Below are positions 1 through 48,610 of a DNA stretch of 64,000 nucleotides, piece by piece. Location: contig QPMI01000040.1 in the NCBI GenBank assembly GCA_004431415.1, positions 434,001-498,000 of the forward strand. Reading direction: 5' to 3'. Every line of letters begins with the position of its first letter. Position 1 is the first letter of the stretch. Made by a program: the position numbers and the translations under genes. The notes beneath the pieces are model-generated. The model searched no databases, was not told the DNA's origin, and was given only the letters and a program-made list of their open reading frames with translations. The DNA comes from Cyanophora paradoxa CCMP329. Lineage: Eukaryota; Plantae; Glaucophyta.

Positions 1-150
1 CCTCAGTTCATAAAGTAGATATTTGCAGTAGGTTGTCTTACCAGAATTGCTGCGCCCACATAATAAAAACCGAGTGCTTAATTTAACTGTTCTTGCAGGC
101 TCAAACTCCGGGATGTCATTCAAATCAATATCCATTCCTGTGTTATCCAT
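1..150 (-). CDS. A32/FtsK-like virion DNA-packaging ATPase, N-terminus (runs off the window)
   Basis: Manual translation from ATG at 150: MDNTGMDIDLNDIPEFEPARTVKLSTRFLLCGRSNSGKTTYCKYLLYELR. Hydrophobic strand followed by Walker A GxxxxGKT, directly downstream of the MCP. Confidence 0.85.
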   Translation of the reverse strand, partial: MDNTGMDIDLNDIPEFEPARTVKLSTRFLLCGRSNSGKTTYCKYLLYELR

Positions 151-259
151 TACAGTAATAAGATAAAAAACAAAATAAATTACTCAGCGCATGCAAGGCA
201 TGCTTGTCATGCCGACCCTACTAATTTTGAGCTTTCTACTATAACGAAAGAAAAGAACT

Positions 260-1486
260 TTAGAAGTTCGAGACTTTCAGGGTAGAGATGTTGTAGCCAT
301 TGAGGACCATAACATTGTGTCGTAGGGCATAGATATCAACCTGAACAGGAGCAGCATCAGTGCATCCCGAAACAGTGAGATCCATGTAACTGGAACTGCT
401 GTTGAAGAAATCCTGGTAACCCATAACACTGTTCCGAAGCGAATCTTTTCCAGATTTGGAAAGAACGATTCCGTAAATATTTCCATTCTCGAATCCATAA
501 GTAGTATTGCCAACAGTAACACCCTTGTAATGAGAAGGAATGTGATTGATAGCCGAGAGGAAACCGGAAATGGGTTTGTTAGAGATATCAAGGGAGCGAT
601 TGTTGTGGAAGATCTGGAACTGATCGATCTTAACATCCGAAACATGACCACAGAAATCCGAGTGAGTGTAGGTGTTAAGTTTGTTCACCTCTCGAACTGT
701 CATGAGAATCGAATGAACCAGACCAGAAACATTAGCGAGTGTCACCTCAACCGATTCACCAGCATCAGCGGTTTTAAGCGCTCGTGTCTTCTTGTGGATG
801 ACCTCTGTGATCGGAATGCGAATGCCACCTTGTTCATTTGCCATTTTCAAAAGTGTCTCAGCCTCAGCCGAAGCGATGTTTACAAATTGACAGATCAGGG
901 AGCAATCCGCAAATGTAACAGATCCACCAGCAGGAACTTTGACTATCCCAGCATCACGGAAATCAACCTCAATTGTTGGCATATCCGCCAGTGTGCATAG
1001 TGGGAAGTAAGCATCATCCCAGAAAGCAGCGGGGATTTTAACAATGTATTCCATAGCCTCATCAGTGCTTTCACGATCAAGTTCTTTGAAGTAACCAAGA
1101 GAAGCATACATGCTGCTCATGGTAGCATGATCATTATCAATCAGAGCGTTAACAGTAATCCAGTCACCAGGGATGATATACTTGAAACCACCATGAACAA
1201 AGCGAACCTCATTAATAAAGGAAGAACCACCATTAGGGAGGGTGCAGGCTACACCACCACCAGTGGCAATCTTGAAATAGAGCGAAACACCAGCAAGGAG
1301 TTGCTTACGAGGCAGATCAAAGTAAGCGGTATTCTTAAAGCCAAAAGTATTGCCTCGGGGGCGAACTTGCTCGAGGAATGGTTTGTACTTGGGGTTGGTT
1401 CCGATTTGGAGACCAGGGGATAGATAAATTTGATCGGAACCGGGAGTTACGAGGAGTTCCTTAAGGGTAGTTCCAGTGAGTGCCAT
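260..1486 (-). CDS. Double jelly-roll major capsid protein (408 aa)
   Basis: N-terminal 'FG..TAYFDLPRKQLLAGVSLYF' and 'FINEVRFVHGG...IPGDWI' match DJR-MCP patterns; 'YFPL...PTIEVDF'; beta-rich; size and context (between ATPase and penton). Confidence 0.85.
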   Translation of the reverse strand: MALTGTTLKELLVTPGSDQIYLSPGLQIGTNPKYKPFLEQVRPRGNTFGFKNTAYFDLPRKQLLAGVSLYFKIATGGGVACTLPNGGSSFINEVRFVHGGFKYIIPGDWITVNALIDNDHATMSSMYASLGYFKELDRESTDEAMEYIVKIPAAFWDDAYFPLCTLADMPTIEVDFRDAGIVKVPAGGSVTFADCSLICQFVNIASAEAETLLKMANEQGGIRIPITEVIHKKTRALKTADAGESVEVTLANVSGLVHSILMTVREVNKLNTYTHSDFCGHVSDVKIDQFQIFHNNRSLDISNKPISGFLSAINHIPSHYKGVTVGNTTYGFENGNIYGIVLSKSGKDSLRNSVMGYQDFFNSSSSYMDLTVSGCTDAAPVQVDIYALRHNVMVLNGYNISTLKVSNF

Positions 1487-1538
1487 CTCTTATGTTTAAA
1501 ATACCAAAAGAAATTTTTAAAATGCTTTATTAAACAGA

Positions 1539-2438
1539 ATGACGCGTCATTACCTTAATATTGATTCCAGGGACCGAGATGATGGAACCCCAACGAACTT
1601 CACTTACAAAATTCCCCATGCAATCCAAAATGTGAGAGCCTGCAGAGTGACTAACTTTGAGATGTTCAATAACATTTACAATCTTAGCGAGAATGGAAGT
1701 TTGATAACAGGAACCTATGATGCTGGAGATGTAATTAAGACCAAGAGTAACACTATTTCGAAAGGGACATATACTTCGGATAGTTTGGTGAATCTTCTAA
1801 ATGCCAAACTAGCTTCACAAGTGTACGGAGCAGCGGGAACTACATATACTCGCCATTTCTACGTTACATATGATCCTGTTACCATGTTTCTACGGTTCAT
1901 GTGCGATGCAACATTTACCCTCACCTTTGGAAGTCGGATCTTAGCGAACTTCCTTGGTTTCCCAGATCGCAGACCTGACAGTTCTGAAAATGGATACGCT
2001 TCTGCCCTGCTCGATTCACCTGTAACAGTTGGAGCTTATACTTATAATTACTACATTGACAGTGTTATACCGCTTGATCTTCTGTTCAATTCTTACATCC
2101 TTCTTCATGTTGACCCACTCAAAGGCAACTATGTAAGCAAGAACACCAGCGATGATAAAGCCCTTGCAAAAATCGAGATTGACCAAACGGTAGGCAGTCT
2201 GCTAAAATACGATTCATCGAATAATTCCATGATCCTGCATGAGCAAAACGGTTTGGTGGAAGTTGAAACGCTAAAAGTTCGTCTCACATACTGGAATGGT
2301 GCCGAAACGGATATTACCACTGACTGGTCGATGACTCTCGAACTCATTACGGAAGATGATAAAGATCTGACCAAGAAAGCATTGAAGAATGTCATTAAAG
2401 AGTTGGAGGGACTCTACTTGCCGTTCTCACGGTCATAG
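1539..2438 (+). CDS. Minor capsid protein (penton, single jelly-roll)
   Basis: N-terminal 'YLNIDSRDR...PTNFTYKIP..IQNV' and C-terminal 'LKVRLTYWNG.....DWSMTLEL' are typical of PLV/NCLDV pentons; divergent from MCP across 52 bp. Confidence 0.82.
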   Translation: MTRHYLNIDSRDRDDGTPTNFTYKIPHAIQNVRACRVTNFEMFNNIYNLSENGSLITGTYDAGDVIKTKSNTISKGTYTSDSLVNLLNAKLASQVYGAAGTTYTRHFYVTYDPVTMFLRFMCDATFTLTFGSRILANFLGFPDRRPDSSENGYASALLDSPVTVGAYTYNYYIDSVIPLDLLFNSYILLHVDPLKGNYVSKNTSDDKALAKIEIDQTVGSLLKYDSSNNSMILHEQNGLVEVETLKVRLTYWNGAETDITTDWSMTLELITEDDKDLTKKALKNVIKELEGLYLPFSRS

Positions 2439-2474
2439 GAAATACTGTAGAATAAATTTGTCTCGATATTACAA

Positions 2475-3221
2475 ATGGCTCGCAAGACTCAGCCCAAGAA
2501 TTTCTTAGCCAAACCAGTTGAGCAAGCAGAACCAGAACGGAAACAGTTTAAGAAATCGAAAGGAACCGCAGCATACGGAACTGGTGATCTCGATAAAAAT
2601 GTCCACCAGACCATGAATGCTCACACAATTGCGCTTACTTCAAACTCAAATGATGATAATGCCCTGGTTGACCAAGTCCCACTGAACCGCATGCCCGGAG
2701 CGAAACGAGGAATCAAGAAAGGGCAGTTCAAATCATCCACGAAGGACAAGGTTGCCTCATCATCGACACTGCTGAAACTGCTTGATGGTGGTGAGAGACT
2801 CTACTCAACCTATTCCGAGAAAGACCATCGCAACCGCTACTTTATTCGTTCAACCACTGGTGGACTGAAATCTGTGACATACCAGTATGCTAGGAGTCTT
2901 GTTGATGGCATTGCAGCAGAGACCAAAAACGAAAACAGGATCAAGGAACAGCCAATCACAAAGGAAAAGGTGGAGAAGAAACCAGAAGTAACCCATGAAG
3001 TCATCCCTGAACCTGTTCATGTTGCAAAAGAATCACCAGCCGAATTGATTGCAAAGACCATCGATTATCAAGACTCCAACAAAACGGATTTGCCGGTCCT
3101 CAATAAATCGATCCTCCGGGTTGCCACTTCGCAGGCTGATCCAGTCAACTCGATTCCAAATGCCGCCCCAATGGTCTCAGGGTTTGCCAAGCTCGGTATT
3201 AAACCTGGTTATCGCCGTTAA
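2475..3221 (+). CDS. Lys-rich hypothetical viral protein (possible virion core/DNA-binding protein)
   Basis: 248-aa ORF co-oriented with penton, viral-type composition, basic ends; no recognisable family. Confidence 0.6.
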   Translation: MARKTQPKNFLAKPVEQAEPERKQFKKSKGTAAYGTGDLDKNVHQTMNAHTIALTSNSNDDNALVDQVPLNRMPGAKRGIKKGQFKSSTKDKVASSSTLLKLLDGGERLYSTYSEKDHRNRYFIRSTTGGLKSVTYQYARSLVDGIAAETKNENRIKEQPITKEKVEKKPEVTHEVIPEPVHVAKESPAELIAKTIDYQDSNKTDLPVLNKSILRVATSQADPVNSIPNAAPMVSGFAKLGIKPGYRR

Positions 3222-3483
3222 GGATCAATCCCGAAATTAAAAAATCTTAAACATTGTTAGCGCTACGTAACCAATCTTATCCCGTAGGCTCAAACACTTT
3301 TTCATTTTTATGGAAGGCGTTGTAGAGCGAAGTGAAATATCCATAGGTAAATCACTTTAATCACCTGTTCTACCGGGTTCAGTGGTAGAAACTTGCAGCC
3401 GACAAGTGAACCTTCAAGGTATCGGTGGCTTTATCATTTTTCCAGCATCTTCTTTCGTACTGGATGCAATGCGATTGGGACCA

Positions 3484-3539
3484 AAAATTGATTGGGTTCT
3501 CACAAAGAATATATACACGACATAAAAACTACTTAAAGA
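3484..3539 (+). promoter_or_regulatory. Candidate early promoter: AAAATTGA (3484-3491) plus ACTTAAAGA (3531-3539)
   Basis: Exact mimivirus-type early promoter octamer upstream of ORF 3577; a similar bipartite arrangement lies upstream of pPolB. Confidence 0.5.
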
Positions 3540-3576
3540 TTTCTTAACATATATTAAGAGAGTAGAAAGGACAAGA

Positions 3577-3840
3577 ATGACGATCACAGAAGCCCAAAAG
3601 AAAGCAACTTACCGCTACCGTAAAACAGAAAAGGGTATGTTAGCGCTTGCTAGGATTAATGAGAAACGCAATGCAAAATGGAATGAACTCTATAACAATG
3701 ATGAAGAATTCAGACAAGCTCACATAATGACTTCATGCAAGGCTCAATATGTAAATAACACCATTCTCTATGTAAAGTATCTATTTGACATTCCTCGTAC
3801 TAACCGTGGACGTCCATCAAAGTATGTTAATGCTTGTTAA
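3577..3840 (+). CDS. Small basic viral protein with AT-hook-like RGRP motif
   Basis: 87 aa; 'TEAQKKATYRYRK' N-terminus and 'NRGRPSKY' C-terminus. Confidence 0.65.
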   Translation: MTITEAQKKATYRYRKTEKGMLALARINEKRNAKWNELYNNDEEFRQAHIMTSCKAQYVNNTILYVKYLFDIPRTNRGRPSKYVNAC

Positions 3841-3846
3841 TCGTTT

Positions 3847-3885
3847 TTCTCAGCGCGATTGCTCTGAGAACCCGCGGAAACCGCG
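3847..3885 (+). terminator. Twin hairpins just after the stop of ORF 3577 (candidate termination/polyadenylation signal)
   Basis: TTCTCAG(3847-53)...CTGAGAA(3864-70) and CGCGG-AAA-CCGCG (3873-85). Confidence 0.4.
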
Positions 3886-4008
3886 CTGGAAGCAAAACTA
3901 TAAATCTTTCTGTTATTTTTAGAGTTCGATGATCGAGCCAACCCTTTGTTATTTTTATAAATGCCCTCGACTGAATTTATTTTGTTGGAGACTTTTGGTT
4001 TTGCCGGT

Positions 4009-4041
4009 AAAATTTGACGCAAGTATAAAATGACTTAAGGA
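4009..4041 (+). promoter_or_regulatory. Candidate early promoter of pPolB: AAAATTTGA (4009-4017) plus ACTTAAGGA (4033-4041)
   Basis: Same two-part layout as at 3484-3539, about 30-65 nt upstream of ATG 4073. Confidence 0.4.
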
Positions 4042-4072
4042 AATAAAATATAGAGTATATATAAAAGTGAAA

Positions 4073-7000
4073 ATGCCTCGCGCAGTAAGTATTCAGAATG
4101 CGAGAAAGAGACAAGGAATGCTAGCAAAGCTTGGTTACCTTCTTGGTGCCGGAATCATAAATGAAGAGCAATTTAACGCATTGGGTTACTTTGCCTTCAT
4201 TAAGAGACTTCGATCTGCTGGTCTGAAGGACATAAGCGATACAATTGATGGTATTATTGCCAGGGGTGAGGGCAGACTGAATGAGCAGGATGAAATCGAG
4301 AGATTTGGTAACATTGAGGTTATTGAAGGTGGAAATAAGAAGACCAAAGCAGAGCGGATCGCTGAAAAACGAGACAAGAGAGCTGAACGGAAGCAGCAGA
4401 AGAAGCAGAAGAAAGCAGGGAGAACCGCTAAGAATGTTGAGAAGCAGAAGGTTAGAGAAAGAATAGCAAAGGAGGCAAAACAGCAGAGAGAGGATGAGAA
4501 GAAGCAACGAGAGGAGGCAGAGGTGATGCAGGCTATGAATAGTCTTGTAAGTGAGGTCACTTGGAGGAACCAGACCAAAGATAACATCGCTTCTGCCATG
4601 AGTTTATTGATAGGGTTGTTCGTTGGGATCCCTTTTACAATCGTTTTCGAGATGCTCTTCGTAACAGACGAGGTATTAAGTATAACCTCTACAGCATGGC
4701 GAGATATGTGAAAGTGGCAACTGGAGAAATAAGAACCATGCAATGGACCACCCCATTCTACCTTCTTGTCAATGATCAAGAGATTGTTGATACTGTTGAT
4801 GAATCAATTGATGCATTGCAGGAGGTTCTCACTTCACCTGATAGTTGGAAGCTAGAAAACATCTTAACAGTTCGCTTGCAGATTCTTACTTATCAGCCAC
4901 TCGCAGGTAGCTCCTATATTGACCTCCCACCAGGAATAAAAAAGCGTAAAGCTGTGATTAATCCACAGAACAAAGATAATAAATGTTTCGCATGGGCGGT
5001 AACTATTGGACTACATCAACATGAGCTATCTCATAAACACCGATATGATGTAAAGCGATACAAGAAGTATGAGAATGAGTTCAATTGGAATAAGTTTGAG
5101 TTCCCATTCAAGAATGATCCTCGTCAGTACGAACGAGCATCAAAAATGATTGGTCGACCAATCAATGTGTATATGGTCGATCGATCACATATCGTTCCAG
5201 TCCATATCTGTAAGGACCCATCCCAACAACATCTTACAATTGACATTCTTCTGTGGACTGTCAACGAAAAAACCCACTATGGTTACATTTCTAGCATGTC
5301 AAGGTTAATATCGAATTCACACCATGGAACTCGCCATTTCTGTAAAGCTTGTTTGAGAGGGTTCACAAGTGAAACAGTATTGGAGACACACATTAAACAT
5401 AACAAGTGTTACGATCGACCAAATGCAACAGTTGACACAATGCCACCGATTGGCTCTAAGACGAAGTGGGACCCAAAGAAACACATTGATAAGACTGTTT
5501 GGCATCCAATGTTCGTTGTTTCTGACTTTGAATGTATTTTGAAGAAGGTGGATGAGACACGAGGTGAAAACACTGCAGTCTACCAGAAGCACATTCCAAG
5601 TGGATACAAAATCATGGTTATCCACAACGAAGAGATTATAAAACAGGTATTGTATCGGAAGGAGAACCCAGAAAATGATGATGAGGTTACACAGCACTTT
5701 ATGGAGACACTGAAAACGATTGAATCCGATTTACTTGAGAAGCTTAGACATGTTGCACCAATGGTTATGGAACAATGGCACAAAGAGGATTACAGAGATT
5801 CTGTTGCTTGCTACATCTGCGGAGATGAGTTTGGAGCTACTATAACTGATGACAATGGTAACACATGTCAAGTTAAAAAGGTTAGAGACCACGATCACAT
5901 TACAGGAGATTACCTTGGAGCAGCTTGCAATACTTGCAATCTGAAACGAAAGATCAATCCAAAGATCCCAGTTGTGTTCCACAATCTAAAAGGTTATGAT
6001 GGACACTATATTCTGAAGGCTTTGAATTTCAATGAACCTGGTAAGGAAATTCGTTGCATTGCCCAGAATTTTGAGAAGTTCATAGCATTCGATATGGGAC
6101 CATACAAGTTCATGGACTCTTTGAATTTCATGGCTTCGAGCCTTGATGGTCTGGTAAAGAATCTCAGTAAGAATAATTTCAAATTCACCAATGAGTGGTG
6201 TGATTCTGTAAATTACTCACAGGAACAGCGAGAGCTACTGATGCAAAAGGGACACTTCCCTTACGACTACCTGGATAGCTTCGAGAAACTCAGTGAGACC
6301 CAATTACCTCCCAAAGAAGCTTTCTACTCGAAACTCAATGATACTGAATTAAGTGACTCCGACTACAAGCATTGCCAGAGGGTATGGGACGCTTTCAACT
6401 GCAAAACTCTCGGAGATTATCACGATATCTATCTTTCTACTGATGTTGCTCTGCTTGCTGACGTTTTCAATACATTCCGCAATGTTTGCTACAGTAATTA
6501 TAAGATCGATCCTATCCATTTCATTTCAGCTCCTCACCTGTCATGGTTCGCGATGTTGAAATATACAGGTGTGGAGTTGGAGCAATTGAGTGACCCTGAA
6601 ATGTATAGATTCTTTGAACTTGGAATTCGTGGAGGTGTTTGCATGGTTCCCAATCGTTATGCAGAGGCTAATAACCCCTACATGAAGTCTTATGATCCAT
6701 CAAAGTCAACAAAGTATATCACCACTTGGGATGCCAACAATCTGTATGGGAAAGCGATGAGTTTCAAGCTACCCAGAGGTGGATTTGAGTGGATTGATGA
6801 CATCGAGAATTTCGATTATATGGGCTTTGATGTGGAAGGTGATAGAGGTGCAACTTTGGAGGTTGACTTGGAATATCCAGAACACCTACATGATCTTCAC
6901 AGTGATTTACCTCTTGCTCCCGAATCTCTAATAATCACCAAGTCAATGATTTCACCAACACAGCTTGAAATGATTGGTGATGAAAAACTACCCCAGACTC

Positions 7001-8033
7001 GTAAGTTGGTTCCCAATCTGATGGACAAGACCAATTACATCCTACACATCAAAAACTTGCAGTACTACATCTCAAAAGGATTGAAGGTAACAAAGGTTCA
7101 TCGTGGGATTATGTATGATCAATCCGAGTGGTTGAGACCATACATTGATTTCAATACCGTACTGCGGACGCAAGCTCGTAACGATTTTGAGAAAGACTTC
7201 TACAAACTCATGAATAACTCAGTTTTCGGAAAGACCATGGAGAACGTTCGCAAGCGAAGTAACATAAAGCTTTGCAACGATCCGAGGGTGCAGCTCAAAC
7301 ACAACAGCAATCCGTTGTTGAAGACAGTGAAGATTATCAATGAGAATCTTACTGCTTTAGAGTTCTATAAGGGTTCTATAATGTTGGATAAACCCATTTA
7401 TGTTGGTCAGGCTATCTTGGATCTGTCCAAACTAATCATGTATCGTTTCCATTACGATTACATCATGGTGAAGTATGGACCTGGATCAGCCAAGCTCCTC
7501 ATGACTGATACAGATTCCCTGTATTATCTGATTGAGACTGATGATATCTACAAAGACATGATTGAGGATTCTCATTGGTTTGATCAGTCTGATTACAACA
7601 AATCCCACATCTGTTACAACCCTAAAAATAAAAAGGTTCCAGGTTTGTTCAAGGATGATTGTGGTGATTATCTCGTCACAAGGTTTGCAGGCTACAAACC
7701 AAAAGCATACTCCTACGAGAAGGAGTTGAATGTTAAGGCTCTTGGTCTTGAAGTTGCTGGTGATACAAAGACTGTGAAGAAGTTGAAGGGAGTTCAGAGG
7801 AATGTTGTTCAGAATAAATTGGAGTTCCAACAGTTCTACAACACTGTCATGAACCCCAGGTTCAGCAAGAATCTGTAACAGTTAGAGGCTTCCGATCAAA
7901 GAACCACGAGGTAACAACGCAGGAAATGAAGAAAAGGGCATTTAATGCGCTCGACACTAAGCGGTATCTTTGTGAGGATCTCTATACGACTCTTGCGATT
8001 GGACACTATAAAACAAAAACGACACTATTATAA
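4073..8033 (+). CDS. Protein-primed family B DNA polymerase polyprotein (putative terminal protein + vOTU-like region + C2H2 finger + exonuclease with EndoVII insertion + polymerase); two -1 frameshifts in the given sequence
   Basis: Motifs GSSYIDLP, NKCFAW...HYGYI, ExoI SDFEC, HDHITG..GAACNTCNL, ExoII HNLKGYD, WDANNLYG, KLMNNSVFGK, MTDTDS. The conserved C-terminal tail (FRSKNHEV...ALDTKRYL...TLAIGHY) continues in the -1 frame to TAA 8031-8033. The main frame is open upstream of 4696 back to ~4585 and overlaps ORF 4067-4711. Confidence 0.93.
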
Positions 8034-8035
8034 GG

Positions 8036-9093
8036 ATGGATCAGGTTTTGAGTTACACCAAGTATCGACAGAAATTGATTAAAGAAGGTGTCACATTTGA
8101 TGAGGAAGAACTAAGAAAGCGTTTTAAAAATCAAGAGATTGAGCAGATCTTTAAAAAGCCCAGAAAGCAAAAGTCTTTCTTGCGGATCGTTGCTCCACCC
8201 AATTCCTTTCAGGTTGATGTGATTTATTTCAAAAGCTACAAGACAGCAACACATGGAGTGGATAGGATGATGGGATTTGTCGATATATTGAGTCGGAAAG
8301 CATTTGTATACCCTTTCAAGCCAAAGGATTCGAAAATCGATATTTTCAACAGGTTCAAAGTTGAGGCAGGCAAGGTTAGTGCTATCTCAGGAGACAATGA
8401 GTTCTCTGCTGAGATTTATAGGAAATGGTGTGAGGAAAACAATGTAACTCTTTACACTGATGTAGCTAAGAATGACCACATCACAGTAGGTGATAAACTT
8501 GGTATTATTGATAGGTTTACCAGAACTTTCAAGCAATATTTGAGAAAAGCAATAGTTTCGAGTGGGAACCCCAAATGGACAGATTATTACAAGGAAGTTC
8601 TTTCAACTTATAACAACAGCCCACACACATCACTTAAGAATGATCCTCCCAATGCAGTTTACGGGAATAACGAGAAAGAATCGTTTATATATTTGCGTGA
8701 TGCATTGCATAATAAGCGTGTTAAAGAAGGTAGCCCAACAGTAAAGGAGGGAGATTATGTTCGAGCTGTAACTGAAAAGAAGACTTTCGATAAAGAAGGA
8801 GCAAGATACAGCAAACAGGTGTATAAAGTAGCAGGCAAGGTAGGTAATCGATTCAGTTTGTTGGAAGAGAATGAGGGAGAGAGTCCAAAAGAAGTGAAAC
8901 GAAACTTTAAACTGAACGAGTTGCAAAAAGTAGATAAGGCAGCAATTGTTAAGATTCCCACACAGAAGCGTGTGGAGCGAGTGAAAAAACAACAAAGGTG
9001 AATAGATTAGTAGCAAAAGAGGGTATCAAGCCCAATAGGAGCAAAGTAGTTAGGAAGAGGTATAATTTAAGAAGCGGTTTGACTAGGCGTTAG
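8036..9093 (+). CDS. Retroviral-type (rve) integrase; C-terminal tail in the -1 frame
   Basis: FQVDVIYF / ISGDNEF / GIIDRFTRTFK core, YNNSPHTSL..PP, SH3-like 'GDYVR...KKTFDKE...YS..VYKV'. The -1 frame from ~8995 reads KVNRLVAKEG...RKRYNLRSGLTRR* (TAG 9091-9093). Confidence 0.92.
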
Positions 9094-9452
9094 GTTGTAA
9101 GGTATGAGCCATCTTTCGATTCAACAATTTTCGTGATAGGTCTAAACACTTTGAAAATTTCTTTATTATGGATTCCTTTAACATACCAACCCTTATTAAT
9201 GGGATCCCATCTGAGACCATAAGATTTCGCTAATTGGATATCTTTGAAAGCAACTTGACAATACATTTTAACATTAATGTATTTGATTTCGTCTTCGGTT
9301 AGTTTTCGGAATTCTTTGAAGATCTCACTGTTTTCATCTTCAACAAACCATAGCTTCTTTTCAAAATCCCATTTTGCGCCTTTTGATTTCACGGATTCAC
9401 GATCATCATATCGAGAGAAAATGTAAAAGCGTTGTTGTGGCTTGGTTTCCAT
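9090..9452 (-). CDS. Tandem DUF5710-like domain protein
   Basis: Two copies of the Y...F/Y.D...K..G.(K/R)WD...K.W(F/Y)V motif: 'YDDRESVKSKGAKWDFEKKLWFV' and 'FKDIQLAKSYGLRWDPINKGWYV'. Confidence 0.8.
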   Translation of the reverse strand: METKPQQRFYIFSRYDDRESVKSKGAKWDFEKKLWFVEDENSEIFKEFRKLTEDEIKYINVKMYCQVAFKDIQLAKSYGLRWDPINKGWYVKGIHNKEIFKVFRPITKIVESKDGSYLTT

Positions 9453-9512
9453 TTTTATTCAGATTATCAGATTATTTTTATATGAAACAATCAATGAGGA
9501 ATAACCGAGATT

Positions 9513-9845
9513 ATGATATAACATCGATTGTTGTTACTGAGGCTTACTGAGATTAAACGTTTTGTTTTGTGTGGTTACTGTGAATGGTTTGTTTTTGTCG
9601 AAACGTTTGTGGAATATCGAAAAGTTTAAAGTTTATTCGATTTTATTACCATATATAATCTCGTGGGGCAGTATGCCAATGATATAACATCGAATTTTGT
9701 AAATGATGCTTACTGAGATTTACTGAGATTGGTGATTGGGTTACTGAGAATGGTTTGTTTTGTTGAAATGTTTGTTGAAAACATGAAAAAATGAGAGTTT
9801 ATTCGATTTTATTACCATATATAATTTCGTGGGGCAGTATGCCCA
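9513..9845. repeat. Two imperfect ~166-bp tandem repeats in the viral terminal region (probable TIR)
   Basis: Units 9513-9678 and 9679-9845 both start ATGATATAACATCGA and end GTTTATTCGATTTTATTACCATATATAAT(C/T)TCGTGGGGCAGTATGCC; internal TTACTG(A/T)G iterations. Confidence 0.88.
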
Positions 9846-9862
9846 ATTTACATTTTTTTACT

Positions 9863-12800
9863 ATATTGGATTCACCACCCCGGTCGTGAATCCAAGCAGG
9901 ATCTTGTAAGCCCAGCCGCTCATGCTAGCGCTGCAGCAGATCTCGATCTGACTAGCTTCGCAGCGAAATTGATCTTGCTGTAAGCTCGAGCTCCAGGGTC
10001 GGGCGAACCGTCATTTCAATCTCCACCTCAGCCATCACTACAGGTTCATGGTGTTCGTGTCTGCGAGCTAGTTATATGTGCTGAATTTCAGCCAGACGTC
10101 AATCCGGCCATGTTTGCGTGCGGAAATCTGCTGGTGGATGCAACGCGCAACCGGCGCCCTTACATCATTGATCCGAGTAGTGCGTTTAGCGTTAAAAACT
10201 TGAAGATATGTAGAGGAATCTGAAGCTGATGCCATTTTCAGGCGGCTCTATTGTCGGCAGCCCTTCAAACATACAAATGACCGGCATCGCCTTCCCCTTG
10301 AGGAGAGCAGCTCTTGGCTCGGATCCGACCCTGTGCACCTTGTGCGTGCACCTCTCGAGCTTAAGCTTGCTTTAATTTGTGAGCTTAAGCTTGCCGGCCG
10401 ACGCCCGCATCAGGATCGCTGTTGGTGGAGACGTCGCCGGTACCGGAGCCACCGCGATCCAAATGCGCGGTTCGCTTAAATCGCATGTTTGAGTTCTAAT
10501 TCACAATATCAAAATGTAATTAATAAACATCTCTGCACAGGGACGTACCCTGGATGGAACCTGCCGGTGGTGGCCTCCGTGAAAGCTATGTCGACGGGCT
10601 CGCGCTCCGCCACCGTTACCATAAACTTTGCTTGGAACGCGGGCGTGGAACTGACCAGCGCATCGGCGAGCTGCATTCCCTTGGCTGGAGGGCCTGCTGA
10701 TTGGACTGCGTCCGCGGCAGTGCCCGCAGGGACACGCTCAGGGCCACTTACGCTAGCAGCGGGTGGGCTGCAGCCGAATGTGTCGTACGCGTGTTGGGCG
10801 AATGCCTCGAACAGCGTGGGGACCTCGGCCAGCGTCTCTTCCGCGCAGTTTCGGACGACTGCCGAAGCGCCTGCCGCCGTCGGCATCGCCACGCAGAACG
10901 TCCAGGCAACCGCGGCAGAGCTTGTCGTGACGTTTGGAAGTACCGGAGGGTCGACCATTACTTCCGCTGCCGCGAGCTGCACCCTTCTTGACTCTACCGG
11001 CGTAGTCTGGAGCGCATGGATTGCAGTGACGTCGCCGGTTGGCGCCAACTTTACGGCAACCGGACTGGCGTCGAACTCAACCTATAGCTGCTCGTCCAAC
11101 GCTACAAACCTGATTGGGACGTCCCCGAATTCGAATGTCACATTCACAACGCTCGTGCTCACGGAGACGCCGAGCCCGAGCCCGTCGCCCAGCCCGTCGC
11201 CGACGGAGACGCCGAGCCCGAGCCCGTCGCCCAGCCCGTCGCCGACGGAGACGCCGAGCCCGAGCCCATCGCCAAGCCCGTCGCCGACGGAGACGCCGAG
11301 CCCGAGCCCGTCGCCCAGCCCGTCGCCGACGGAGACGCCGAGCCCGAGCCCATCGCCAAGCCCGTCGCCGACGGAGACGCCGAGCCCGAGCCCGTCGCCC
11401 AGCCCGTCGCCGACGGAGACGCCGAGCCCGAGCCCGTCGCCCAGCCCGTCGCCGACGGAGACGCCGAGCCCGAGCCCGTCGCCCAGCCCGTCGCCGACGG
11501 AGACGCCGAGCCCGAGCCCATCGCCCAGCCCGTCGCCGACGGAGACGCCGAGCCCGAGCCCGTCGCCCAGCCCGTCGCCGACGGAGACGCCGAGCCCGAG
11601 CCCGTCGCCCAGCCCGTCGCCGACGGAGACGCCAAGCCCGAGCCCGTCGCCCAGCCCGTCGCCGACGGAGACGCCGAGCCCGAGCCCGTCGCCCAGCCCG
11701 TCGCCGACGGAGACGCCGAGCCCGAGCCCGTCGCCCAGCCCGTCGCCGACGGAGACGCCGAGCCCGAGCCCGTCGCCCAGCCCGTCGCCGACGGAGACGC
11801 CGAGCCCGAGCCCGTCGCCCAGCCCGTCGCCGACGGAGACGCCGAGCCCGAGCCCGTCGCCCAGCCCGTCGCCGACGGAGACGCCGAGCCCGAGCCCGTC
11901 GCCCAGCCCGTCGCCGACGGAGACGCCGAGCCCGAGCCCGTCGCCCAGCCCGTCGCCGACGGAGACGCCGAGCCCGAGCCCGTCGCCCAGCCCGTCGCCG
12001 ACGGAGACGCCGAGCCCGAGCCCGTCGCCCAGCCCGTCGCCGACGTCGACGGAGACGCCGAGCCCGAGCCCGTCGCCCAGCCCGTCGCCGACGGAGACGC
12101 CGAGCCCGAGCCCGTCGCCCAGCCCGTCGCCGACGGAGACGCCGAGCCCGAGCCCGTCGCCCAGCCCGTCGCCGACGGAGACGCCGAGCCCGAGCCCGTC
12201 GCCCAGCCCGTCGCCGACGGAGACGCCGAGCCCGAGCCCGTCGCCCAGCCCGTCGCCGATGGAGACGCCGAGCCCGAGCCCATCGCCCAGCCCGTCGCCG
12301 ACGGAGACGCCGAGCCCGAGCCCGTCGCCCAGCCCGTCGCCGACGTCGACGGAGACGCCGAGCCCGAGCCCGTCGCCCAGCCCGTCGCCGACGGAGACGC
12401 CGAGCCCGAGCCCGTCGCCCAGCCCGTCGCCGACGGAGACGCCGAGCCCGAGCCCGTCGCCCAGCCCGTCGCCGACGGAGACGCCGAGCCCGAGCCCATC
12501 ACCCAGCCCGTCGCCGACGGAGACGCCGAGCCCGAGCCCGTCGCCGAGCCCGTCGCCGACGGAGACGCCGAGCCTGAGCCCGTCGCCCAGCCCGTCGCCG
12601 ACGGAGACGCCGAGCCCGAGCCCGTCGCCCAGCCCGTCGCCGACGGAGATGCCGAGCCCGAGCCCGTCGCACAGCTCGACCCCGCTTCCGAAATCGCAGT
12701 CGTCACCTAGCCCGAGCCCATCGCCAAGCCCGTCTCTTTCGCCGCCTACGCCCATACCGACTGCTCCTCCGCCGGCTATAATCGTCGCGCAAGAAGCTGT

Positions 12801-15800
12801 CGTCTACAATCCAGAAGCCATTGCAGGAGCTTCAGAGCTCGTGACCCGCATTTCCGCCCTGTCGGTCTTCATCGCCCCCCCGAAGGTCATCAGCGATACT
12901 GTGGCGTCCGACAGCTCTTCCAGCGGCGCCCCACGCAGCCTAAAAAGTGTCGCCGTGCTCGAGTATTACTTCAGCTCCGCCACTGACCCGCAGAGCCGCA
13001 CGGTGCGCGTGAATTGAGTTTTTTCGAACTTCCAGAATCGCAGAGAACTTACATTCTTATAATTACGCGCACCAGACGTTCGATTCGCTGCTGGAGAGCC
13101 TCTCGGGGAGCTCGCCGGAACTTTTCGGCGTGTATGAGGTGACGAGGCCCGGCGCGCCGGGCTACGTCAACGTCAACTCGGCATACCCCTTTGCCGGGGC
13201 GGCCCTGCTGACGAACGTGGTGGGCACGCTCACGTACGACCCCGACTGGGGCTCGTTCGCCGCCGTCGCCGCTGCCATCTTTGACGCAACGGGATTTCGC
13301 CCCGCCGCACTCTCCGTGGCCACGCCGCGGCGTGCCCTCCGCCAGTACTCGCGGTCCGCCGTTCTCGTCTCCTTCGGCAGCACTGTCGGCGCCCTACAAG
13401 CCGCCAAGAAGGCGCGTCGCTTTCCCCTCACTGATTCGTCTTCGCTAAAGCGGCTAGTAGACGCTGGCGCTCGTCGCGAGCTGCATGCTCGAGCCCGTGT
13501 ACCAGTTCGAGCTGGACAGCGAGCTGGCGCAGAACCCGTGCCTTAACTTTACCACCGATGCTACCCTCCCCATGCCTGGTGCGGCTTGGATCGGCAGCAT
13601 TACTATGTGCCGTGATCGATATCGTGACCGCGCTTCGCACGGCCCCGCAGCGGTCAAGGCGCTGGGGCGGCAGGTCGACCTGGCCACCAACGACACGGCC
13701 TTGGCGGGAGCGATTTTTTCCCTGCTGAGCGTGCCGGGCGATGGTGATGCGACCTCGCTCGGGCTCGTGGCGTCGCGGCGGCCCGCCGCCGGCGTCGTGC
13801 TGCGGGGCGAGAGCGCCGCGGAGACGCTGCGCGCGCCAGGCGCGGGCGATCGCGAGGCTGTTTGTGCCCTCTCCGACGGGCGCGAGTGGCTCTTCTTCGT
13901 CTTTGGCTCGGACTCGGACGGCGCGAGCGTCTCTGCAACGAGCGCCGCAACGCTGCGAAACTTCACGCTGCCCTCTTCGGCGCTGCCGCGGCCCGCCGCC
14001 TGCGCCGCCTTCGACGGGCCCTTCTCGCTCGTGGTCGGCACGCGGGAGCCGCGGCTGCATCGCGTGCGGCTGACGGGCGACGGCCTCGCGAGCGAGCCGA
14101 TCGCGTGGACGCTGCCCAGCGCGAAGCCGGTCGTGCTCGGGGAGCGCGCCCGCCAGCCGCCGGCCGCCGCCTCGCGCGCCGTCTTCCTCCAGTCCGACGA
14201 TGCCGCGAGCACCGGCGGCGGCGCCTGCAACGCCGCCGACGCGTCCGTCTTCCTCCTCGTCGTCGACCGCTCCGGGGCGGTGCGCAGCGTCGCGGGCGCC
14301 CTCCCCGGCCTCTGCCCGCAGGCCCTCGCAGTCTCTCCCGACGAGTCCGCCGCGCTCGTCCTCGTCGCCGGCGGGCGCCTCTTCCGTGCACCGCTGCACC
14401 CGAACGCGACGGGCGGCCTCCGCGAGCTGCCGGGTCCCAACCGAATCCCAGGCGGCGGTGCGCTCGCCTCGGTCATCTTCCTCGCCAGCCGTGCGTACGC
14501 TGTCGGCGCCGTCGTCGGGAGCGAGCTGGCGGCGGGGCCGCGCCTGTGCCTCCTCTCCGTGCTGGAGGGCGAGGTCGCCGCCTCGACCTGCTTCGACCTC
14601 GAGCTCCCAAGCGCGGGCGTTGCCGGCGCCGCCGCTCAGGTCGCACTGCAGGCCGCGCGCCCGGCCCGTGCGTTCTACGTGACCCTTGGTAGGCTCCTGG
14701 TGCCCCTGCGCGCCGAGGCCGGCAGCGTCCGGCTGCTGGGGGGCGCCGGCACGAGCGCGCAGCTCGGCTCGAGCCTTGTGCTGGAGTACATGGTGGGGGG
14801 CTTCAACCTGGAGACGCGGGTCAAGGTCGTGAGCGCGGCCAACCTGCGCACCGTCTACAGCTTCGCGGCGAGCAACCCGGAGGGGAGCTGGCGGGCGGCG
14901 GGCCGCCGGGCGACGGCCATCCCCCTCCGCGCCCCCTTCTTCGCCGTCGGGGGCAGCTACGCGGTCGTGGTCTGCCTTGAGCTTGACGAGGCGTGCAGCC
15001 CGCCGGGGCTGCACTTCAAAGTCCGCGACGCCGCGGGTGCGGTCTTCGATTCCCATCAGCCCTTGACGCTGCAAAGAACGCTGCTGCCCTTGACACGCGC
15101 GCGCGGCCGCCGGGCAGGCTCGGACACGGGTCCCGCGCGGTCGGTGCTTCTCCGCCTCTCCGCGCTGCGCTCGTACGTCGGGGGCCGGCTCCAGGCGGTA
15201 CTCGACGGCGTCTCCCTCGAGTCGCCCGTGCGGGGACAGTCCGCCGTGCGCCGCCCCGCGTTTGTGAAATTGCTGCTCTGCTTGGCGAACAAAGGATCGT
15301 GCAGCGCGTCGTGAGCGAGGGGGATGCGGCGGTGAACGCGAGCTTCTATTGGAACGACCCCGCGCGCTGGGCCGCCGCCAGTTCGTATCCCCCGCCTCCC
15401 CTTCCCACTTCCCTCTCCGCCCACAGCCAAAGCAGGCGGCCCCGGGCGGGCGGTGCACTTCCGCTTCGAGAAGGGGCCGGGCCGCTGGCGCCTCGCGTCC
15501 ATTCTGGCCGCCGATGCCACGGGGGTGCGCGAAATGCTTGATTTTCGCGCGCGTGCGAAAGAGTCCGAGCCTCGAATTTCGCAGGAGCTGCTCCAGTGGG
15601 TCGCGGGCTACAACGCCGACGCCCCCTCGGCGGCGCTGGGCAGCGCCCTTGAGTGCGGGGCGCTCAACGTCACGCTCGTAGCTGCCGGCTCGGCGGCCCC
15701 GCGGGGATGGCTTGCCCTCTCCAACTTCAGGATGTTCGCCTTTGAGGCCGCCGGGGGTACGTATACGGTTAGATTGGCGGTTTTCCGCTCAAGCGTGCTT

Positions 15801-35991: not shown

Positions 35992-38900
35992 ATGGAGCAC
36001 CTGCCCGCGATTGAGCAGCGCCCGGGGACTTCCGGATCGGGGACCAGCAGCCACAGGAAGATGATGGAAGCCACGCAGTCTTCCCAGGAGCTGTCGCACG
36101 CGCAGTTCGACACGCAGCCGGCGCCGCGGGGCCAGCAGCACCTGTCGGGCGTCGCCGGCGTGAGGCGCATGGCGCGGGAGAAGCGGAAGGAGGAGGAGCG
36201 CAAGAAGCTGCTGCGCGAGGTCGGCTGGAACAGCGGCGCGCCGGTCGTCGAGCGCATCATCCCGCCGTGCGCCCCCGCCCGCTCCCGCGCCGCCTCTCTC
36301 CGCCCCCCGCCGACCGCCCCGCAGGTACGACGCGCGCAACGATCCGTACCTTCCGCGCGCGTATCGCCTCCGGGTGCGCTCGCCTGGCGCCCGCCCGCCC
36401 GCCCGCCCGCCCGCCCGCCCCGCCCCGCCCTGAGAGCGCCCCCGCGCAGCTGCGGCAGCTGCAGCTCCCGATGTCGCCGGAGGAGTCAGTGATGGTGCAC
36501 CACCTGTACACCGTGGCCTCGTCCGAGGCGGCGAAGCAGAAGGCGCGGGTCGGCGAGAAGCTGAAGGAGGGGGACGCCCGGGGCCGCAAGAAGGTGCCGG
36601 CCGGCCTGCCTGCCGCTCCCGCTCGGGGCTCACCGACGCGCCTGCGCGCCGCGCGGCAGCAGGACCACTCGACGTCCTCGCCGGGCAAGTCGTTCCCAGC
36701 GGCGAACAACTCCCCGCCGCACGGCCGCGGCACCCGCTCGCTGCCCGCCCTCCCGCCCGCAGAGGGCCGCAAGGCCCGCCCCCCGCCCGGCCCGGCCCCT
36801 TCGAAACCGTCTCTGAAGCGCGCGCGCAGGCGAGGCAGGGGCCGCCGCAGGACGAAGGCAAGTCGGCGCACGAGTTGCTGGAGGACCTTCTCCGCGAGGT
36901 GGACGAGGCGGAGGCGCCGGCTTCTCCGGCTCCGGCGGCAGCGGCAACGGCGGCGGGCCCGACGGCAGCGGAGGCGGCCGAGGAGGCCGGGCTGACCGAG
37001 GAGGAGCTGAACCGGCGGCTGGCGAAGCTGCAGGCGCGGTTCCGGGGCATCAAGACCCGGAAGGAGTTGGAGGAGCGGGGGGTCCTCCCCCGCCGCGTCT
37101 CGCCCGAGGCCGAGGGCGCCGAGGTCGCAGCCGCGGAGGCCCAGGCGCGCGCCGAGGAGGAGCGCGCGCGGGACGAGATGAAGGAAGAGGCGCGGGCCAT
37201 CCGCGGCGAGTACGACGCCGGCGCCATCGAGAGCGACGAGCTGAACAGGCGGCTCGCCAAGCTCCAGGCGCGGTACAGGGGCTACAAGGCCCGCAAGGAC
37301 CTGGAGGAGCGGGGGATCGTCGTCGCGCCGCGGCGGGCATCCGTGGGCGAGGCGGAGCGCGCCGGCATCGCGGCGGACGCGCGGGCGCTGCACGAGGAGG
37401 CCAAGGCCGGCGACGTCGACGACGCGGAGCTCGGCAGGCGGCTGGCGAAGCTGCAGGCGCGGTACAGGGGCTACAAGACGCGCAAGGAGCTCGAGGGACG
37501 GGGCATGCTCCCCAAGTCGCGCGAGCGGTCCGAGCCGGGGACGGCGGAGCCTCCGGGAGCGGCCGCGCCGGCGGCGCCGGCGCAGGAAGCCGACCCGAAG
37601 AAGGTGGAGAGGGGCGTGGCGAAGCTGCAGGCGATGTACAGGGGCCAGAAGGCCCGCGAGCAGGTGCCGCCGAACCCCCCAACTCAATCGCCTTTTGCTC
37701 TTGCGCCCCTCTGAGGCGACCCTTCCTTCCTTCGCCGCAGGTGCGCAAGAAGCGGGCGGAGGTCAAGCGCGCCAGGGCGCCCCCGCCGAAGCCGCCCGGC
37801 TTCGCCCTCGTCATCGACAAGGTGCCCCCCGAGGGCTGGAAGGTGCGGCCGCGCTCGCTTCCCCCGGCGGCGTGTCCGCCCGCTCCGTCGAACGCGAAGT
37901 CCGACCCCCTCTCCCCCCGCCCCGCAGGAGCCCGAAAAGGTGGACAAGCAGACGCAGGAGAAGCTCGCCAAGAAGATCCAGGCCCTCTACAGGTGGGGAA
38001 TTCCCGATTCTCTAAGCTTGCGAGCTCCGCTCTCTCGCTGAGCTAGCTGACTAACGAGCCGGGCGCCCGGCAGGGGCCACCACACGCGCGCCAAGCTCGG
38101 CAAGGGCCCGCGCAGCCGCGCCGGGAGCGAGGCCTCGACCCAGGCGGAGCCGGCGGCGGCGGCCGCAGCGGCCGCCGCTGCGGCGGAGCTGGCGACGGCG
38201 ACGCCCTCCCAGGCGCGTCGGGCCGGCCCCTCTCCGACTCACCTGAGTCTGAGCCGCCGCCGCCCTCGCAGCGCGGGGACTCGGCGACGAGCGGGGAGGA
38301 CCTGGACAACGTCGACCTGGCGCCGCAGCCGCAGGCGGCGCCGGCGCGGCCGCAGCTGAAGCTGAACCTCGGCGGGTCCGCCGCGCCGGCGCCGGCCCCG
38401 GAGGCCCGCGACAAGTCGGCTGCCAAGGTCCAAGGTGCGCGCGGCGCCGGCCGGCCTGCCGCCCCCGCCGTAAGAAGGCGCCGCCTAACCCAACCGGCGG
38501 GCGGGCAGCGATGTTCCGGGGAGCGAAGACGCGCAAGGAGCTGGGCGCGCGCGGGCTCAAGACCGTCACGCCGCACCAGGCGCACGAGCGGCTCAAGCTC
38601 GACATCGCCGGTTCGCCCGCCCCACCACCGTCCCCTCCCTCCTCCCCGCCCTCCTTCTCACGCCGCCGGGGCGGGCGGGCGAGCAGCGGTGAAGCGGGCG
38701 GAGGAGGAGGTCGTCGAACCGCGCCACGCAGAGGCCGACCTCGACGACGTCCCCCTCGCCGGTTCGAATCCTCCTGGCGCTGTTTCGCCTCTGGCGCTCC
38801 GGCGCTAACGCGGCCCGGCCGCCGCAGCGCCCGCCGAGTCGGTCAGCATGAAGAACAAGAAGGGCATCAAGCTCGACCTCAAGTCGCCCTCCATGAAGAG

Positions 38901-45564: not shown

Positions 45565-45652
<88 letters not shown>
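45565..45652. repeat. (TA)n microsatellite, ~44 units
   Basis: Directly visible. Confidence 0.97.
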
Positions 45653-47395: not shown

Positions 47396-48277
47396 CTGGC
47401 ACCGGCGCGCGGGGCGGAGGTGCGGGCGGCGGTGCGGTTCGCCGGGCGGGGCGGAGGCACTGTGGGCGGCCGCCGGGCGGCGCTGCGCGCAGGCCCAGGC
47501 CTAGCCGCCTACGCCTAGCATTATACTTAGTTGTATAGGTAGTCGCTGAGTATTACTTACTAAGTTATATATAATTAGTTGTTGTATTCTGTCAGCGTCC
47601 CTACTTTAGACCCCACCTTGCACCTCCTGAGACGAGTGGGGGCGGGGGCGAGTCGAAGACCTAGTAAGTGCTTGAGAGCCGCGCGTTGGTGACCGCGCGC
47701 CTACGTACGTACGCGTGGAGCCGCGCTCGTGGCAGGCAGCGGGGGTTACAGAATTTGGATGGGAAAGAGCGCGTTCGCCATTTGCTGACCAATGGGACCC
47801 TTCCTTCTATATTTTTCTTTCGTGAAGAACTTCGTTCGCGACCCAGTCTCGGCTTGGAGCTTGGACGTAAATCCGATTCGTCGGCTTGAATAGAAGCCAG
47901 TTTCGGTGCAGTCGTCGAGATCCGGCTTGACGTCTAGCTGACGAATGGGATTTCGATTCCGGCTCCAAGCCGACAAAAGCCGGATTTCGGCGCCATCTCC
48001 TGCTTCAGCCTTGCATGCGCGAGGTGCGCTTGGAACTAGTCTAGGCTGAAGTTCATGTGCTCCATCTTTTCCAAGTGAAGCCGAGTCCAGGGTCTCCTCC
48101 CCTCCAGAGATTCAGGGGGGATTTTCATTTCGATTCGGTGTTAGTGCCCGAAAACGTTCGAATCAGGCAAAATGAGTATCATTTTCGGGATCCCAGAGGC
48201 CGAAAATGGGGTAGTAGGTCGATTCGTTTATGCTAAATTTTGATGGCGGTGGCAAATTATGCCCAGCTGCAGCACCA

Positions 48278-48610
48278 ACCTAAGGGCCTCTCCTTTCCCC
48301 AAGGCCGATATGCATGGGTCTCTGACTGGGCCGGCCGCCGATTCTGAGCGAAGAGACCAGAGGTTCTACTGTTCACTGCTTAGATGTCACATCGAGCTAT
48401 TAATATTTGGTGTGCACGTGTGCTCATGAAGCGCGATGGCTCAGAATGCGGCCGTCAGAAATCGGCCTTGGGGAAAGGAGAGGCCCTTAGGTCTGTGCCT
48501 GTCCTGTCCGGGATCGGCCTTGGAGAAAGGAGATGCACTTATATAATTATATTAGGTATGTGCCTATCCTGTCTGTAAATCGGCCTTGGGGAAAGGAGAG
48601 GCCCTTAGGT
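48278..48610. mobile_element. Foldback/MITE-like element with a 32-bp motif in inverted and direct copies
   Basis: ACCTAAGGGCCTCTCCTTTCCCCAAGGCCGAT (48278-48309) is the exact reverse complement of 48461-48492 and 48579-48610; partial copy near 48513-48533. Confidence 0.6.

What the first reader, a model, noticed from the sequence alone, without database searches (positions are those of the whole stretch)
1..9862. Apparently near-intact endogenous Polinton-like virus with a full virion module, pPolB and integrase in a GC-rich protist
Seen: ATPase (Walker A GRSNSGKT, absent from the ORF track), MCP, penton, pPolB and rve integrase packed without introns in AT-rich DNA that has not ameliorated to the host composition. 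Known: this gene set defines Polintons/Mavericks and mavirus-like elements. Inference: the 408-aa MCP is too short for a virophage MCP and has an NCLDV/PLV-like N-terminus, so this may be an undescribed lineage of integrating, virion-forming virus, recently inserted and possibly reactivatable.
Basis: partly seen in the sequence, partly recalled or inferred. Interest (0 to 1): 0.9.

Follow-up and report, generated by a model that had tools for sequence, protein, structure and literature searches.

The report
Known endogenous virus of a glaucophyte
This AT-rich stretch is the right-hand 9.9 kb of a small DNA virus integrated in many copies in an alga's genome, most likely Cyanophora paradoxa; its capsid gene is about 97% identical to one already published from that alga, so the virus family is catalogued, though it is unnamed and whether it still makes particles is untested.

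Summary
Window 1-9859 is a 40%-GC, intron-free viral gene block in 68%-GC host DNA. It holds a double-jelly-roll capsid gene (model matches faustovirus/PBCV-1 capsids at Z 28, mavirus at Z 16), a Polinton-type pPolB, an rve integrase, a probable penton and only the first 49 codons of the ATPase. The host junction is in short-read contigs of four runs; the end is 9859, not 9862.

Three corrections. (1) It is not undescribed: a sister capsid with 289 of 299 residues identical is in Bellas et al. 2023, which counts 366 capsid genes in Cyanophora paradoxa, and Bulzu et al. 2025 tabulate 156 glaucophyte elements, none with a protease. (2) "Near-intact" is unproven: the left part lies outside the window, and pPolB (twice) and the integrase carry one-base deletions against sister copies, either real or assembly error. 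(3) Foreign GC and an NCLDV-like capsid fold are usual for these viruses.

Added here: about 8-11 copies share this polymerase, and copy differences are mostly synonymous (58 of 73). The lineage remains unnamed and particles are unshown.

The parts
1..152 (-). 5' end (about 50 codons) of a P-loop ATPase, likely the A32-type packaging ATPase; runs off the window
   Evidence: Walker A GRSNSGKT; Pox_A32 E 0.039, below the cut-off; 139 of 156 published glaucophyte elements carry Pox_A32
260..1486 (-). Major capsid protein, double jelly-roll, 408 aa
   Evidence: AlphaFold2 model pTM 0.71; Z 28.5/28.0 to faustovirus/PBCV-1, 16.5 Sputnik, 15.8 mavirus; 289 of 299 residues identical to published C. 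paradoxa gene_49165 (counted by eye)
1539..2438 (+). Probable minor capsid protein (penton), 299 aa; label inferred
   Evidence: Next to MCP; Atlas look-alikes 0.97-0.98 in viral clusters, one with DUF5901 on 17% of members, recognition below threshold; 24% over 158 aa, E 0.005 in a 19-protein set, to the penton-like ORF of L001; profile test not above shuffles; fold failed
2475..3221 (+). 248-aa ORF, no family found
3577..3840 (+). 87-aa basic ORF, no family above cut-off
4073..4711 (+). 212-aa ORF; likely the N-terminal part of pPolB, cut off by a one-base deletion near 4595
   Evidence: Run X9 contig 4001-5630 has one extra base there; contigs of X1, X4, X5 and X13 over this stretch each show one gap; 4073-8033 spans about 1320 codons, like the 1217-1314-aa relatives
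4696..8033 (+). [quoted passage not shown]
   Evidence: Motif positions and 35-42% identity to L001-L003; Endonuclease_7 E 0.017; C-terminal frame matches L001 at E 4e-10; extra base near 7860 in sister contigs
8036..9001 (+). Retroviral-type (rve) integrase, 321 aa; third acidic position is Asp, not Glu; one-base deletion near 8983 against sister copies alters the last codons
   Evidence: Alignment with L001-L003 integrases; table 4. No Pfam hit
9090..9452 (-). 120-aa protein with two DUF5710 repeats
   Evidence: PF18974 E 2.1e-15
9513..9843 (.). Two 166-bp tandem units, 82% alike, in the non-coding terminal region (likely the right terminal inverted repeat); the sister copy seen in X15/X17 has one unit
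9830..9859 (.). Element terminus, ending in a T-run at 9859; host flank starts at 9860
   Evidence: Flank contigs of X4, X5, X13 and X9 all start at 9830, 30 bases before 9860; loose ends in X15/X17 and in X22 carry the same end followed by two other flanks

Best explanation
Window 1-9859 is the right part of one chromosomal copy of a multi-copy Polinton-like virus whose host is most likely the glaucophyte Cyanophora paradoxa; the family likely spread by integrase-mediated insertion and would, when active, copy its linear genome with its own protein-primed polymerase and pack it into double-jelly-roll capsids. Shown: gene content, capsid fold of the model, one end shared by three insertion sites, several copies, and mostly synonymous differences between copies. 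Inferred from Polinton/PLV biology: excision, terminal-protein priming at the terminal repeats, release of the terminal protein by the vOTU domain, ATPase-driven packaging, no maturation protease. The capsid module appears to be shared with more copies than this polymerase-integrase module, so relatives likely pair the same capsid with other replication genes. This copy is either recently damaged or mis-assembled at three short base runs.
For: Host: MCP 289 of 299 identical to C. paradoxa gene_49165; a 25%-identical relative is a C. paradoxa EukProt protein; host GC 67.9% against 67.6% published; all 24 listed runs carry one organism label. Integration: flank contigs in 4 of 5 DNA runs laid, three different flanks behind one end. 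Copies: single-contig depth of pPolB over flank is 9.4, 10.8, 7.9, 8.9 and 9.1 in X1, X4, X5, X13 and X9; an intergenic piece at 3295-3314 is 31-43 times the flank in four runs (computed; a rough proxy only). Selection: 58 of 73 listed substitutions are synonymous against at most 34% expected (p 1e-15), including 6 of 6 in MCP and 13 of 14 in the penton candidate. Published family content: 156 elements, 139 A32 ATPase, 85 rve, 49 pPolB (PF03175), 40 D5-type, 34 PIF1-type, no protease.
Against: The left part, left repeat and target-site duplication were not seen; no genome is held. The penton and ATPase labels are weak within the window. The 73 substitutions are only the best-supported rows shown (80 shown, 637 hidden; 7 rows next to the frame break at 7854-7874 dropped), and the contigs are collapsed mixtures of copies. 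The tool warns that depth is not a copy number. The third integrase acidic residue is Asp, activity untested. The depth ratio is flat across five runs, with no sign of an amplification burst. The laid DNA runs show the same variants and junction, so they may be one strain and are not independent populations. The junction contigs hold 30 element bases, one short of the tool's 31-base bridging rule, and no piece spans the whole element.
Confidence: 0.85

Rival explanations
1. Lifestyle rival: the family behaves like a virophage, silent until a giant virus infects the alga, then replicating in its factory and reducing its yield.
For: Shown for endogenous PLVs of Tetraselmis and for Gezel-14T (passages). 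Flat depth ratios in five runs fit silence in culture.
Against: No giant-virus promoter motif was tested and no giant virus of this host is in hand. The element keeps a full exonuclease-bearing pPolB, unlike mavirus. Silence fits any latent provirus.
Confidence: 0.3
2. The family no longer makes virions and spreads, or once spread, only as a self-synthesising transposon; this copy is a dead relic.
For: Three frame breaks in this copy. In X1 and X5 a low-depth contig matches the window's substitutions near 7860 and is not counted in the insertion row at 7858, so that break may be real (12 indel rows were hidden). A published sister MCP is also frameshifted after residue 299. No particles found in print.
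Against: Capsid and penton-candidate differences are almost all synonymous (19 of 20). All three breaks are single-base deletions at or beside short base runs, and Bellas et al. show that such breaks in multi-copy EVEs are often assembly artefacts. The majority contigs lack them.
Confidence: 0.2
3. One reading: an undescribed lineage of integrating virus.
For: No close relatives outside the host: 0 hits in the 5.8-billion word search, 6 hits in 1.84 billion representatives of which 5 are capsid-like at 24-28%, none in IMG/VR. The published clusters are marked 'new' with no group name; only 2 of 156 elements hit the MCP-POL models; the 2026 PLV framework does not mention Cyanophora in its main text.
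Against: The capsid sequence, its count in the genome and the gene content of 156 elements are published; adintovirus-like proteins in C. paradoxa contigs were noted in 2021.
Confidence: 0.1
4. Chimeric assembly or a co-cultured virus joined to host DNA.
For: The window starts inside the element; no listed piece spans it; the interior may be a mosaic of copies.
Against: End-plus-flank contigs with no differences in four runs, and three different flanks behind one end; steady depth ratios.
Confidence: 0.03

Closest known systems
Cyanophora paradoxa endogenous viral elements of Bellas et al. 2023 (PMC10120064; Table S2 gene_49165, Table S4 two clusters of 272 and 94 MCP genes, clusters 21 and 29 by my column count)
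   Same: MCP 289 of 299 residues identical to gene_49165; HHpred there and structure search here both point to NCLDV-type capsids; host GC matches.
   Different: The published copy is frameshifted after residue 299, this one is open for 408 aa. Whether this very locus is in their hit table was not visible (file cut). Which of the two clusters holds it was not determined.
Glaucocystophyceae PLVs of Bulzu et al. 2025 (PMC12220804 Table S6, 156 elements)
   Same: A32 ATPase, minor capsid, rve integrase, pPolB in a subset, no protease.
   Different: Lipase (89), Peptidase_S74 fibre (37) and HNH (40) genes common there are not in the window; they may lie in the missing left part.
Polintons/Mavericks (Polintoviricetes)
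   Same: pPolB with predicted TP-vOTU-exonuclease-palm order followed by rve integrase; DJR MCP; terminal repeats.
   Different: No maturation protease seen here or in 156 published family members; the capsid falls in separate clusters.
Mavirus-like virophages (EMALEs)
   Same: AT-rich integrated element with pPolB and rve integrase in a GC-rich protist.
   Different: Capsid model far closer to NCLDV capsids (Z 28) than to mavirus or Sputnik (Z 16); pPolB keeps its exonuclease motifs; no protease.
IMG/VR contigs L001-L003
   Same: pPolB (35-42%) directly followed by rve integrase (27-30%).
   Different: No tblastn match of this MCP or its relatives to them at E 1e-3; different capsid modules.

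Membership tests
Polinton-like viruses (broad sense) | Double-jelly-roll major capsid protein | tested here: met
Polinton-like viruses (broad sense) | A32-like packaging ATPase | tested here: inconclusive
   Only 49 aa in the window; Walker A present; Pox_A32 E 0.039. Family level 139 of 156
Polinton-like viruses (broad sense) | Single-jelly-roll minor capsid protein | tested here: inconclusive
Polinton-like viruses (broad sense) | Genome of 14-40 kb between terminal inverted repeats | not testable with these tools
   Left end outside the window and no genome held; right end shared by three insertion sites
Polinton-like viruses (broad sense) | Integrase (rve or tyrosine recombinase) and, for rve, a 5-6-bp target-site duplication | tested here: inconclusive
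   rve-type gene present by alignment, third acidic residue Asp; duplication needs the left flank
Polintoviricetes (Mavericks/Polintons, Gosseviruses) | pPolB with terminal-protein, vOTU, exonuclease and palm domains | tested here: met
   Exonuclease and palm motifs, and a Cys and His conserved in all 4 aligned sequences where vOTU is expected (domain labels inferred from PMC11161782); gene is frameshifted in this copy
Polintoviricetes (Mavericks/Polintons, Gosseviruses) | Ulp1/adenain-type maturation protease | not testable with these tools
   None in 1-9859, left part unseen; 0 of 156 published glaucophyte elements
Polintoviricetes (Mavericks/Polintons, Gosseviruses) | MCP and ATPase group with Maverick/Gossevirus references | not tested
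   No reference set on hand; published tables put Cyanophora MCPs in separate unnamed clusters
Virophages (mavirus-like) | Virophage-type MCP | tested here: not met
   Z 15.8 mavirus and 16.5 Sputnik against 28.5 faustovirus and 28.0 PBCV-1; 0 of 156 with MCP-VIR
Virophages (mavirus-like) | pPolB with only a remnant exonuclease | tested here: not met
   Exonuclease motifs present; mavirus state
NCLDV-like PLVs (Mriya, Zora, Zephyr, Alpensee groups) | Capsid module related to Nucleocytoviricota by profile clustering and ATPase tree | tested here: inconclusive
   Best structural matches are NCLDV capsids, but this holds for most PLVs and Polintons; no ATPase tree possible
NCLDV-like PLVs (Mriya, Zora, Zephyr, Alpensee groups) | Mriya48, HUH endonuclease or VLTF genes | not testable with these tools
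   None recognised in the window by Pfam; left part unseen

The most novel reading that the evidence does not exclude
The glaucophyte elements are a still-unnamed deep capsid lineage, possibly on the NCLDV-like side of the PLVs, that joins a protease-less capsid module to a full Polinton-type polymerase and an integrase with an Asp-Asp-Asp triad, swaps replication modules within one genome, and includes intact copies that can be induced to make virions: an inducible DNA virus in a culturable model alga of the earliest-branching plastid lineage.
Probability: 0.3. Interest if true: 0.7.

Novelty: already known. Interest (0 to 1): 0.27.

Why it matters
As a discovery it adds little: integrated Polinton-like viruses are common in protists and this family is in two published catalogues. 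What remains useful: the lineage is unnamed and has almost no relatives in public metagenomes; copies show purifying selection on capsid and polymerase genes; and the likely host is an easily cultured model alga, so whether endogenous PLVs make particles alone or need a giant virus could be tested directly in it.

Tried and rejected
Own genome: none held, so no left end, copy census or target-site check. Homologue searches without result: MCP in the 5.8-billion set (the profile search returned only its own member P0003) and in IMG/VR; penton candidate; integrase in IMG/VR; terminal 22-mer in IMG/VR. The metagenome scan with the integrase gave five 33-35-residue matches only, not followed. P0005, a jacalin repeat protein, was dropped from the MCP alignment as a chance hit. 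PDB sequence searches with pPolB and integrase: 0 hits. Pfam does not recognise the MCP, its 5 relatives, the penton candidate, the integrase or the pPolB core. The single-sequence penton model failed (pLDDT 35) and was not searched; a 3-sequence penton profile scored it 6.9 bits against 6.8 for the best of 500 shuffles. In one search three L002 ORFs were read on the wrong strand; the penton row was redone, and the capsid comparison was covered by tblastn there. The Atlas search of the MCP and the wide structure search did not complete. No RNA holder is on record. Three runs guessed to be RNA were laid on 4000-10400 only: X15 and X17 each hold one 2620-nt contig of a sister copy over 7200-9677 that runs 60 bases into another flank, with little cover of the pPolB 5' part and none of this host flank; X22 holds short pieces. 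Literature: 'DUF5901' 0 papers; no paper on particles or reactivation in Cyanophora in searches of the held open library. Earlier scan findings: none on this genome or sequence; 8 shown for other genomes did not bear on it. No phylogeny was built, for want of reference sets.
Full report
1. What is in the sequence. Positions 1-9862 have 40.4% GC and the rest of the window 67.9%. Eight intron-free reading units cover about 87% of 1-9859. On the minus strand, 1-147 encodes 49 residues with Walker A GRSNSGKT and runs off the window; its Pox_A32 match is weak (E 0.039). Then come a 408-aa ORF (260-1486, minus), ORFs of 299, 248, 87 and 212 aa, a 1060-aa pPolB ORF (4696-7878), a 321-aa integrase (8036-9001) and a DUF5710 protein (9090-9452, minus; E 2e-15). 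A non-coding tail with two 166-bp units follows. No genome is held, so everything left of position 1 is unseen.

2. The capsid. Sequence searches barely reach it: 0 hits by word search, none in IMG/VR, and 6 among 1.84 billion representatives, 5 of them capsid-like at 24-28%. An AlphaFold2 model on that 6-row alignment has pTM 0.71 and mean pLDDT 64.5. Its best matches are NCLDV capsids: PBCV-1 at E 7.7e-18; Z 28.5 faustovirus (rmsd 3.0, 334 aligned) and 28.0 PBCV-1, against 16.5 Sputnik and 15.8 mavirus; the viral library agrees. So it is a double jelly-roll and not of virophage type. Bellas et al. say that Polinton and PLV capsids are generally more similar to NCLDV capsids, so this is not a mark of novelty. 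The penton label for the 299-aa ORF is plausible but unproven: Atlas look-alikes are viral clusters at 0.97-0.98 with recognition below threshold, a weak match to a penton-like ORF of L001 did not hold up against shuffles, and the model failed.

3. Replication and integration genes. pPolB is 35-42% identical to the polymerases of three IMG/VR contigs, where it is likewise followed by an rve integrase. Exonuclease and palm motifs are present, and a Cys and a His are conserved in all four sequences where Krupovic et al. place the vOTU protease (the domain label is inferred). The gene is broken twice in the window: the C-terminal motif is in another frame (E 4e-10 to L001) and the 212-aa ORF is likely its N-terminal part. 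Sister-copy contigs carry one more base near 4595, 7860 and 8983, the last in the integrase tail. All three places are at or beside short base runs, and Bellas et al. show that frameshifts in multi-copy EVEs are often artefacts. Against that, a low-depth contig in X1 and X5 matches the window near 7860 and is not counted in the insertion row, though 12 indel rows were hidden. The point is unresolved. The integrase has Asp at the third acidic position, where L001 and L003 have Glu and L002 Asn.

4. Integration and copies. Twenty of 24 listed runs hold the stretch or part of it, all under one organism label. I laid 5 DNA or unlabelled runs and 3 guessed-RNA runs. In X4, X5, X13 and X9 a contig starts at 9830 and continues without differences into the host flank. 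It begins exactly 30 bases before 9860, and loose ends in X15/X17 and X22 show the same terminal sequence followed by two other flanks. The element therefore ends at 9859 and sits at three or more sites. The 30 bases are one short of the tool's bridging rule, and no piece spans the element, so a mosaic interior is not excluded. Single-contig depth of pPolB over flank is 7.9-10.8 in all five runs; an intergenic piece of the capsid side is 31-43 times the flank in four. These are rough proxies. They suggest about ten copies with this polymerase, more with this capsid module, and no amplification burst. Of 73 listed substitutions in genes, 58 are synonymous against at most 34% expected, and none makes a stop (80 rows shown, 637 hidden, 7 beside the frame break dropped). 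The copies diverged under purifying selection, capsid genes included.

5. Host and prior description. One capsid relative is a Cyanophora paradoxa protein. Table S2 of Bellas et al. 2023 lists C. paradoxa gene_49165, which I count as identical at 289 of its first 299 residues before its own frameshift; HHpred matched it to an ascovirus MCP at 97% probability. Table S4 counts 366 MCP genes in that genome, 272 and 94 in two clusters marked 'new' and, by my column count (21 and 29), without a group name. Published GC of that genome is 67.6%. Bulzu et al. 2025 tabulate 156 Glaucocystophyceae elements: 139 A32 ATPase, 97 with their minor-capsid model, 85 rve, 49 PF03175 pPolB, 40 D5-type, 34 PIF1-type, 89 lipase, no protease in any of nine columns, and only 2 hits to their Polinton MCP models. 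Starrett et al. noted adintovirus-like proteins in C. paradoxa contigs. The 2026 PLV framework does not name Cyanophora in its main text and reports that replication modules switch often within PLV groups. No host gene of the flank was placed on a tree; Pfam found only an IQ motif among 26 flank frames.

6. Papers, as seen. PMC10120064: passages, sections 7 and 9, supplement file 2 by search and part 28 (the file is cut; the hit and transcriptome tables S5-S6 were not seen and may list this locus or its expression). PMC12220804: abstract, passages, results parts 1-2 of 5, supplement rows and part 33. bioRxiv 10.64898/2026.06.19.733378: abstract, all results, word search; supplements not seen. 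PMC11161782: abstract, results part 1, sections 8 and 10. PMC8502044: section 3.4. PMC6704402 and PMC12695648: passages. Others: search listings only.

7. How it most likely works. An rve integrase inserted the linear genome at many sites (shown: one end, three flanks; enzyme activity inferred). On activation a copy would be excised, primed by the terminal-protein domain of pPolB at the terminal repeats, replicated, and packed by the ATPase into capsids of MCP and penton without a maturation protease (inferred from Polinton/PLV biology). Whether activation needs a giant virus is unknown; I give that rival 0.3 and a virion-less relic 0.2.

8. Verdict. A real, correctly recognised endogenous Polinton-like virus, of a family already catalogued in its likely host. 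It works like a Polinton; it is not shown to belong to Polintoviricetes and fails the virophage tests. The lineage is unnamed and unplaced, which is the remaining interest. Interest 0.27.

Noticed in passing
window 54779-64000, minus strand: An intron-free open frame of at least 3073 codons, running in from beyond the window end, built of Gly/Thr/Val/Asn-rich repeats (171/135/306-bp period); Pfam gives beta-solenoid and propeller repeat scores only. It looks like a long fibre or adhesin and has about 66% GC; a second viral element or a host surface protein are both possible.
   Followed up: partly
window 52800-54700: GC dips to 40-50% just downstream of that long frame; no element end like 9831-9859 is there.
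   Followed up: partly
window 10588-13017, plus strand: Host frame with a long Ser-Pro/Thr-Glu-Thr-Pro repeat (42-bp period), like an extracellular hydroxyproline-rich protein, about 700 bp from the element end.
   Followed up: no
window 48272-48498: 227-bp segment with 38-bp inverted arms, 95% complementary, MITE-like; a second imperfect inverted pair at 47849-47973.
   Followed up: no
window 4071-4198: Short contigs of a diverged relative of the pPolB start reach depth 2551 and 3213 in guessed-RNA runs X15 and X17 and then continue into unlike sequence; possibly a highly expressed gene of a related element.
   Followed up: no
window 7742-7777: Sister copies have 103 other bases in place of these 34 (23 codons more, in frame), a variable loop near the pPolB C-terminus.
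   Followed up: no
window 36434-37714, plus strand: Host frame with repeated IQ calmodulin-binding motifs (E 4.5e-15).
   Followed up: no
window 45565-45652: (TA)n microsatellite of about 88 bp in GC-rich DNA.
   Followed up: no
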